A stretch of DNA of 28,393 nucleotides from Eledone cirrhosa (lineage: Eukaryota), in the NCBI GenBank assembly GCA_964016885.1, contig CAXHJY010000197.1:1-28393 (forward strand). The letters are read 5' to 3'. The notes under the pieces are model-generated. The model saw only the letters and a list, made by a program, of their open reading frames with translations, ran no database searches and had not been told where the DNA came from. Positions 18,190 to 18,730 of this stretch are shown piece after piece (position 1 is the stretch's first letter; each line of letters opens with the position of its first letter). A program made the position numbers and the translations under genes.

Positions 18190-18252
18190 TATTTTATCTG
18201 ATGAAAGCGTACCAATGTGTCTTGGTACCCTTGAAATATATATAATAAAATA
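18190..18252 (+). ncRNA. Type I hammerhead ribozyme, intact core
   Basis: Stem I TATTTTAT(18190-97)/ATAAAATA(18245-52); CTGATGA 18198-204; stem II AAGCGTACCAA/TTGGTACCCTT (10 of 11 pairs); GAAA 18233-36; short palindromic stem III ATATATAT; predicted cleavage after AUA at 18244. Confidence 0.85.
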
Positions 18253-18664
18253 ATTATGGTTTTATAAATATAGTTTCTATTTATTTAATATCATTGAATA
18301 TTTACTTCAGTAAATTGTTGAGTGCTCTAAATCAGTTACAAACATTTATATTTGTCGGACTTCCAGCAAATTAAATACCCCTTCTACTTATATATATATA
18401 TATATATATATATATATATATATATATATATATATATATTATATATATATATATATATATATATTATATATATATATATATATATATATTATATATATAT
18501 ATATATATTATATAAATATGTATATATATATAATAGAAATATGTATATATATATATATCTATATCTATGTACACATAAATATATATATATATATATTATA
18601 GAAATATATATATATACATATACAATATTAAATAAATGGAAAACTATATTTATAAAACCATATT

Positions 18665-18730
18665 TATTTCATTATATATATTTCGGGGATATCATATTAA
18701 CAATATGCTATGCCTTCATCAGACAAAATA
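18665..18730 (-). ncRNA. Type I hammerhead ribozyme, inverted homolog with a different stem II
   Basis: Minus strand TATTTTGT-CTGATGA-AGGCATAGCATATT-GTT-AATATGATATCCCC-GAAA-TATATATA-ATGAAATA. Stem I is 8 bp including two G-U pairs; stem II has 11 of 14 pairs. Confidence 0.8.

What the first reader, a model, noticed from the sequence alone, without database searches (positions are those of the whole stretch)
18190..18730. Opposite-strand pair of hammerhead ribozymes with a fully exchanged stem II
Seen: a + HHR (18190-18252) and a - HHR (18665-18730) face each other across a TA-rich spacer. They share the core, stem I, stem III and ~55 of 59 nt of 3' flank (18233-18290 vs reverse complement of 18626-18684). 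Their stem II sequences are unrelated (AAGCGTACCAA/TTGGTACCCTT vs AGGCATAGCATATT/AATATGATATCCCC), yet both are self-complementary. The two stem I differences give G-U pairs. Inference: structure rather than sequence was conserved, so this is a genuine ribozyme family, and transcripts of either strand could self-cleave. Known: PLEs form inverted terminal repeats carrying HHRs, and both-polarity ribozymes typify viroid-like RNAs; an inverted PLE or retrozyme remnant is the simpler reading.
Basis: partly seen in the sequence, partly recalled or inferred. Interest (0 to 1): 0.8.

Follow-up and report, generated by a model that had tools for sequence, protein, structure and literature searches.

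The report
Two retrotransposon ribozymes landed face-to-face
Two hammerhead-ribozyme-shaped sequences that face each other here are the broken-off ends of two subfamilies of a very abundant Penelope-like retrotransposon, the second likely inserted later into the TA repeat behind the first, so the pair is probably an ordinary accident rather than a two-strand RNA device.

Summary
Both type I hammerhead motifs are present as described, with predicted cuts at 18244/18245 (+) and 18673/18672 (-). They are not one unit. They belong to a repeat family with 59,393 exact hits to one core motif in the 3.0-Gb genome (control 11). The minus copy's core and stem II recur exactly 2,944 times; the plus copy's recur 293 times (up to 1 mismatch). 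Longer copies flank an ORF with reverse transcriptase, a CxCx5C linker and a GIY-YIG nuclease, the features of the Hydra clade of Penelope-like elements, which target (TA)n. Native inverted copies point away from each other. This pair converges, mixes subfamilies, and the minus copy sits in only one of three local duplicates while being identical to an unlinked copy, so it is a later insertion. Five similar convergent pairs occur in fetched loci. The stems II are homologous, not unrelated (13 of 22 positions identical), but family-wide covariation supports selection on structure. A read-through RNA is predicted to fold into one long hairpin that blocks either ribozyme. Small novelties: a conserved C·C mismatch in stem II and a roughly 90-nt tail. 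Cleavage is untested.

The parts
17581..18388 (+). 5'-truncated 3' end (pLTR plus long tail) of a subfamily-A Hydra-clade Penelope-like element; no ORF left
   Evidence: 82-86% to unlinked copies from 17581 on; 79% to the pLTR of longer element L031; tblastn of the ORF finds nothing in the window
18190..18252 (+). Type I hammerhead motif, subfamily A: helix I 18190-18197/18245-18252, core 18198-18204, stem II 18205-18232 (10 pairs plus C·C), GAAA 18233-18236, palindromic helix III strand 18236-18243, A17 18244, predicted cut 18244/18245
   Evidence: 293 copies of core plus stem II at up to 1 mismatch
18170..18270 (+). Predicted distal extension of helix I (18170-18181 with 18259-18270), one possible reason the 3' flank is conserved
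   Evidence: in the minimum-energy fold; 93.7% of cells paired but only 1 of 10 pairs with a two-sided change
18294..18388 (+). About 90-nt optional tail (long 3' end class)
   Evidence: two 3' end classes about 47-53 and 138-146 nt past the predicted cut
18389..19073 (.). (TA)n-rich microsatellite; target tract into which the minus copy is inserted
   Evidence: Tandem Repeats Finder
18625..18809 (-). 185-nt 5'-truncated pLTR fragment of young subfamily B, short 3' end, no inverted partner
   Evidence: 0 differences from unlinked copy L003 over 185 nt; absent from the other local duplicates
18665..18730 (-). Type I hammerhead motif, subfamily B: C3 18722, stem II 18715-18685 (11 pairs, 3 mismatches), G12 18684, A17 18673, predicted cut 18673/18672
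   Evidence: 2,944 exact copies of core plus stem II
20610..20672 (+). Paralogous subfamily-A hammerhead in local duplicate 2, with a substitution at core position A15.1 and one in stem II
23066..23114 (+). Paralogous subfamily-A hammerhead in local duplicate 3, with a 14-nt deletion across the core and the 5' arm of stem II
16978..23930 (+). Three head-to-tail local duplicates of about 2.3-2.4 kb (boundaries approximate), 90-98% alike in unique blocks; only the first holds the minus copy
   Evidence: self-BLAST
20831..20907 (-). Separate insertion in the TA tract of duplicate 2: truncated 3' part of a hammerhead from a second Hydra-type PLE family

Best explanation
The two motifs are hammerhead sequences in the terminal repeats (pLTRs) of two subfamilies of one high-copy Hydra-clade Penelope-like retrotransposon family, and they face each other because the minus copy likely inserted, as a separate and later event, into the (TA)n tract behind the older plus copy. 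Shown: family membership, copy numbers, the RT plus GIY-YIG ORF in longer relatives, two fixed 3' ends, and the minus copy's presence in one of three duplicates. Inferred from work on other PLEs: the element's nuclease nicks TA-rich DNA, reverse transcription starts at one of two internal sites (short end or long tail), and early termination leaves pLTR-only fragments. The stem II differences arose in the active source lineages, where pairing was selected, not at this locus. In the source element the ribozyme would likely cut only as a dimer through its palindromic helix III or with help from the element's protein. At this locus the motifs are probably passengers, and a read-through RNA is predicted to fold into one long hairpin that blocks both.
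For: 59,393 hits to helix I plus core (control 11); 17,352 to the 3' flank (control 0); 2,944 and 293 subfamily-specific hits. L031 and L039 show pLTR-ORF-pLTR with the hammerhead upstream of the ORF and again at the 3' end. RWR, DKT, YRDD, CxCx5C, IVY..YVG, CxxC and CxH are present, the Hydra-clade features in PMC8557442 section 11. Atlas neighbours score 0.96-0.98, several carrying RVT_1 and GIY-YIG on part of their members. Close neighbours among the first 100 listed hits are divergent in 25 of 30, 35 of 38 and 24 of 28 cases and convergent in 2, 0 and 1 (the lists overlap). 46 of 51 divergent pairs have exactly one tail. Five convergent pairs across TA tracts were inspected, 4 with different stems II. 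The minus copy is identical to L003 while the local duplicates are 90-98% alike. A second PLE family hit the same tract in duplicate 2. N7 varies while the other core positions do not. 7 of 10 stem II pairs have two-sided changes.
Against: No Rfam hammerhead hit. Only 1 of 9 ORF pieces hit Pfam (GIY-YIG, E 1.5e-4, 22.4 bits, just under the 22.6 cut-off), and PDB sequences gave nothing. The minus copy folds poorly as a hammerhead in isolation: 6.2 kcal/mol above the minimum, helix I probability about 0, z +1.04. RNAalifold recovers stem II but prefers a hairpin that sequesters GAAA and the cut site. Helices I and III show no two-sided changes. Orientation counts come from the first 100 hits on one contig per search. 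No target-site duplication can be read in a TA tract. No phylogeny with published Hydra proteins was run. Loss of the minus copy from two duplicates cannot be formally excluded.
Confidence: 0.9

Rival explanations
1. The pair is the two inverted terminal repeats of one PLE insertion or of a MITE-like derivative, whose arms diverged in place.
For: The arms are 82% alike over 109 nt. The family does form inverted pairs, with 11 of 35 spaced 207-213 nt apart.
Against: Native pairs are divergent, this one is convergent. Each arm is closer to unlinked copies of its own subfamily than to the other arm. The minus arm is missing from two of three duplicates.
Confidence: 0.03
2. The locus works as a both-polarity, viroid-like or retrozyme-like unit in which transcripts of either strand self-cleave and circularise.
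For: Both cores are intact, and each strand carries a hammerhead.
Against: Each strand of the 540-nt pair has one motif only. The nearest same-strand copies are damaged. Read-through RNA is predicted to lock the core at a cost of 39.0 (+) and 46.9 (-) kcal/mol. The spacer is a microsatellite, and the convergent pairs elsewhere differ in spacer and partners.
Confidence: 0.02
3. The motifs are hammerhead-derived structures kept for binding or positioning the element's protein and no longer cleave.
For: G10.1-C11.1 is absent in the best register (0 of 134 copies). A competing hairpin is predicted. In an anole PLE, catalytic mutants did not affect insertion in vitro and no RNA-seq read ends were found at the cut site (PMC11167929).
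Against: Core positions needed for catalysis are fixed while N7 is free. The one common change in the helix III palindrome (A to G, 38 of 140) keeps dimer pairing, at -2.2 versus -3.2 kcal/mol, whereas C or U would lose it. The anole motif did cleave with protein present. This rival concerns function only and is compatible with the two-insertion history.
Confidence: 0.15

Closest known systems
Hydra clade of C-terminal EN+ Penelope-like elements (Craig et al. 2021, PMC8557442), including Hydra-1_Obim
   Same: Single ORF with RT then GIY-YIG; RW(K/R), DKT, CxCx5C linker, no CCHH inside GIY-YIG, CxxC and CxH near the end; (TA)n targets; hammerhead near the 3' end with a roughly 8-9-nt palindromic helix III and A, U or C at the cut site; inverted 5'-truncated copies.
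   Different: Compared by eye with supplement File S2, none of the listed hammerheads, including that of Hydra-1_Obim, has these stems. Stem II here is longer (10-14 positions versus 3-7 listed) with a conserved C·C. The tail is about 90 nt versus the 30-40 bp described for PLEs. The unit is about 3.7-4.0 kb versus generally under 3 kb.
Metazoan PLE minimal and palindromic-helix-III hammerheads (Cervera and De la Pena 2014, PMC4209133)
   Same: Type I topology, long helix II, palindromic 15.2-16.2 region implying dimers, many heterogeneous families per genome, mostly solo truncated copies. That paper also reports pairs 100-700 bp apart on opposite strands.
   Different: In the best register there is no unpaired base after A9 and no G10.1-C11.1 (A-U 99, G-U 19, A·C 13 of 134). 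The minus copy can reach that consensus only by a register shift. Helix I is longer (8 bp, with a predicted distal extension).
Non-LTR retrozymes (bioRxiv 10.64898/2026.07.22.740005)
   Same: Type I hammerhead in non-coding DNA related to PLE pLTRs.
   Different: Retrozymes are same-strand tandem repeats with a complete hammerhead in consecutive units. Here the pair is on opposite strands, and the same-strand duplicates are 2.4 kb composites with damaged motifs.
Avsunviroidae and satellite RNAs with ribozymes in both polarities (recalled)
   Same: One hammerhead on each strand.
   Different: Chromosomal DNA, no circular unit or rod-like genome, microsatellite spacer, and the two motifs come from separate insertions.

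Membership tests
Type I hammerhead ribozyme | Core CUGANGA, GAAA and UH around three helices, helix I open | tested here: met
   both motifs
Type I hammerhead ribozyme | Core fixed with N7 free across homologs | tested here: met
   57 copies chosen by 3' flank only: N7 is U33/G14/A10, other box-1 positions 51-56 of 57; contigs of public runs list only N7 among core positions (4 rows not shown)
Type I hammerhead ribozyme | Covariation in helix II | tested here: met
   7 of 10 pairs with two-sided changes, score 0.197 versus 0.141+-0.006 shuffled (41 hand-picked of 76 stem types, related sequences); pairs 2, 3, 5 are 95-98% paired in all 134 copies
Type I hammerhead ribozyme | Covariation in helices I and III | tested here: inconclusive
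   only one-sided G-U changes in proximal helix I, none in helix III; an alternative hairpin fits equally
Type I hammerhead ribozyme | Match to an Rfam hammerhead model | tested here: not met
   no hammerhead family at E<=10
Type I hammerhead ribozyme | Site-specific self-cleavage | not testable with these tools
   needs in vitro assay or raw RNA reads
EN+ Penelope-like element | pLTR-ORF-pLTR with RT and C-terminal GIY-YIG | tested here: met
   relatives L031, L036, L039; the window copies themselves keep no ORF
EN+ Penelope-like element | Inverted 5'-truncated copy and optional tail at one end | tested here: met
   46 of 51 divergent pairs have one tail; tail about 90 nt
Hydra clade PLE | RWK-type motif, DKT, CxCx5C linker, no CCHH, CxxC and CxH | tested here: met
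Hydra clade PLE | Insertion into (TA)n | tested here: met
   3' ends abut TA tracts in 92 of 109 short-end and 66 of 83 tailed copies within the two modal ranges
Hydra clade PLE | Placement in the clade on an RT tree | not tested
   published reference proteins were only read, not aligned
Native PLE inverted pLTR pair | Divergent orientation, same subfamily | tested here: not met
   window pair is convergent and mixed
Non-LTR retrozyme | Two consecutive same-strand units with complete hammerheads | tested here: not met
   duplicates 2 and 3 have damaged cores

The most novel reading that the evidence does not exclude
This family encodes a switchable hammerhead variant. One conserved 3' segment pairs either with the 5' flank (extended helix I, active) or with GAAA and the cut site (off). 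The near-invariant C·C in stem II (125 of 134 copies) forms an undescribed tertiary or protein contact. With about 60,000 copies, one per 50 kb, such motifs could cut host transcripts when the element's protein or a second copy is present.
Probability: 0.15. Interest if true: 0.6.

Novelty: new member of a known kind. Interest (0 to 1): 0.25.

Why it matters
The pair itself is ordinary: it shows that TA tracts beside PLE ends act as landing pads, so opposite-strand ribozymes arise by accident and should not be read as viroid-like. The family behind it is useful. It offers tens of thousands of natural variants of one hammerhead, a young subfamily with thousands of identical copies, two sharply defined 3' ends and a long tail. 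That makes it a good system to test the open question of what PLE hammerheads do and where Hydra-clade elements start reverse transcription.

Tried and rejected
Rfam scans: whole window (150 of 274 rows shown, almost all microsatellite-driven miRNA matches) and each motif gave no hammerhead. A DNA search of the own genome returned nothing; that tool skips common words, so the blank means nothing. PDB sequence search of the ORF: no meaningful hit. Pfam: 8 of 9 ORF pieces had no hit. Sequencing runs: no RNA holder listed, which says nothing on expression. Contigs of three runs were laid; they cannot show ends or strand, and summed depth was not used as copy number. One run from a second organism covers the stem II and core region with 6-9 differences in 81-96 letters, noted only as a hint. 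A tree from flanking columns was poorly resolved, so independent compensatory events were not counted; parsimony steps on both sides of pairs 2, 5 and 6 are only suggestive. One of 6 convergent pairs (L118) looked like a parsing artefact and was not counted. A minus-strand core at about 13985-14024 has no helix I partner and was set aside. Earlier findings of this scan: none.

Full report
Setting. The window is a whole 28,393-base contig (C224) of a 3.0-Gb genome, made largely of simple repeats. The finding lies in the first of three head-to-tail local duplicates of about 2.3-2.4 kb whose unique blocks are 90-98% alike.

Observation. Both motifs are present. Each has an 8-bp helix I, CUGAUGA, a long stem II, GAAA, the palindromic strand AUAUAUAU and A at position 17. 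The 3' flanks match at 55 of 59 positions and both helix I differences are G-U. The stems II are not unrelated. In register from the core they share 13 of 22 positions, with 3 compensatory changes, a shared C·C at position 4 and 2 pairs broken in the minus copy. Rfam found no hammerhead on either motif at E<=10.

Family size. The shared 35-nt flank motif has 17,352 exact hits, control 0. A 17-nt helix I plus core motif has 59,393, control 11. The minus copy's core and stem II occur exactly 2,944 times; the plus copy's occur 293 times at up to 1 mismatch. So each stem II marks a subfamily, not a local exchange. The 185-nt minus element has 0 differences from an unlinked copy (L003). The plus element runs from 17581 to 18388 and is 82-86% like unlinked copies.

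Parent element. Of 20 loci fetched around close pairs, several hold ORF pieces between the motifs. L031 (A-type, 79% to the window's plus element) and L039 (B-type) show pLTR-ORF-pLTR with one hammerhead upstream of the ORF and one at the 3' end; both ORFs are interrupted. L036 has the same stem II as the minus copy and a 576-codon, 5'-truncated open frame. Motifs found: RWR, DKT and YRDD in L039; YRDD, CxCx5C, IVY..YVG with one Cys between, CxxC and CxH in L036. These are the features given for the Hydra clade in PMC8557442, section 11, together with (TA)n targeting. Pfam hit 1 of 9 pieces (GIY-YIG, E 1.5e-4, just under the cut-off). Atlas neighbours score 0.96-0.98, several with RVT_1 and GIY-YIG on part of their members. 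By eye the protein resembles Hydra-1_Obim in that paper's supplement, but the hammerhead listed for it has different stems, so this is a different family. No tree was run. The window holds no ORF remnant.

Why the pair is two insertions. Among the first 100 listed hits of three searches, neighbours within 6 kb were divergent in 25 of 30, 35 of 38 and 24 of 28 cases and convergent in 2, 0 and 1. These lists overlap and all come from contig C1. Head-to-head is also the usual PLE form in PMC3846280 (passages). In fetched loci 46 of 51 divergent pairs have a tail on exactly one arm. The 3' ends fall about 47-53 nt (92 of 109 untailed copies) or 138-146 nt (66 of 83 tailed copies) past the predicted cut. 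The window's plus copy has the long end and the minus copy the short end. The pair converges and mixes subfamilies. The minus copy occurs only in duplicate 1 and is identical to an unlinked copy while the duplicates have diverged, so it most simply arrived later. Six convergent pairs turned up in fetched loci; one looked like a parsing artefact, and the other five (L017, L042, L043, L094, L108) meet across TA tracts with different spacers, four with different stems II. The TA tract of duplicate 2 received a different PLE family. PMC4209133 (parts 1-2 of 4 read) already reports opposite-strand PLE hammerheads 100-700 bp apart.

Is it a selected ribozyme fold? In 140 distinct copies N7 varies (U105, A14, G13, C8) and the other core positions match in at least 136, but that parser required a near-match. 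In 57 copies chosen by the 3' flank only, N7 is U33/G14/A10 and the other positions match in 51-56. Contigs from public runs list only N7 among core positions (4 rows hidden). On 41 stem types picked by hand from 76 (all 16 seen twice or more, plus 25 singletons; 35 singletons left out, which raises the paired fraction), 94.0% of cells pair against 39-53% for slid controls, and 7 of 10 stem II pairs have two-sided changes. The sequences are related and the structure came from the window copy, so these are not probabilities. Unselected, stem II pairs 1, 2, 3 and 5 are 88, 98, 96 and 95% paired in 134 copies, and position 4 is C·C in 125. The only common change in the palindrome, A to G in 38 of 140, keeps dimer pairing. 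Against this: helices I and III lack two-sided changes, and RNAalifold prefers a hairpin in which the 3' flank covers GAAA and the cut site. The plus copy's dimer-ready fold is within 0.4 kcal/mol of its minimum, the minus copy's is 6.2 above; z-scores are -1.65 and +1.04.

Mechanism. Shown: the anatomy above. Inferred from PMC11167929 (parts 1-2 of 4 read): the protein nicks AT-rich DNA and starts reverse transcription at two internal RNA sites that define the tail; that element's hammerhead cleaved only with protein and was not needed for insertion in vitro. By analogy the two 3' ends here are two start sites, and early termination leaves pLTR-only copies. Selection on stem II acted in the source lineages. 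At this locus a transcript through both motifs is predicted to pair each hammerhead with the antisense of the other, at 39.0 (+) and 46.9 (-) kcal/mol against the active fold. The nearest same-strand partners are damaged. Self-cleavage of either strand here is therefore unlikely unless a transcript stops within the spacer.

Literature. Also seen: bioRxiv 10.64898/2026.07.22.740005 (part 1 of 5), PMC3088659 (passages), and PMC8557442 passages and supplement parts (1 of 59 parts read whole). Searches listed no paper describing this family; subscription papers and repeat libraries were not searched, so it may be annotated there.

Verdict. Real hammerhead motifs of a new Hydra-clade PLE family, juxtaposed by nested insertion. 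New member of a known kind; interest 0.25.

Noticed in passing
window 20831-20907 (-); full motif in L162:1455-1590 (+): Truncated end of a second Hydra-type PLE family (3,559 hits at up to 2 mismatches; ORF pieces with CxCx5C and GIY-YIG-like motifs). Full copies fold as a type I hammerhead in the minimum-energy structure (z -2.64), with a U3-A8 core, a branched stem II and a stable helix III. U3-A8 cores are reported in PMC4209133. The window copy lacks the first core box.
   Followed up: partly
family-wide, stem II position 4 (window 18208/18229 and 18712/18688): C·C mismatch kept in 125 of 134 copies across subfamilies while neighbouring pairs covary; no explanation tested.
   Followed up: partly
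G000 C1, first 100 hits: 11 of 35 divergent subfamily-B pairs are spaced 207-213 nt apart, suggesting a preferred inversion junction near a short palindrome; the window's minus copy ends a few bases beyond that point.
   Followed up: partly
L039 4900-5050 (-): The region between the hammerhead and the ORF start holds an imperfect direct repeat of about 45 nt; the long 3' end falls between the two copies.
   Followed up: no
window 13985-14024 (-): CUGAUGA...GAAA core with a short stem II but no helix I partner; possibly a decayed hammerhead of another family.
   Followed up: partly
window 4-8931: 8.9-kb tandem array of a 38-nt unit built on ATG repeats, with almost no C on the + strand.
   Followed up: no
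window 12677-12861 and 26471-26654: Inverted 185-nt repeat at 93% identity, likely two copies of a dispersed short element.
   Followed up: no
window 17371-17463 versus 21428-21521 and 25033-25113: Within the local duplicates two blocks are inverted copies of each other at about 78-80%; their source element was not identified.
   Followed up: no
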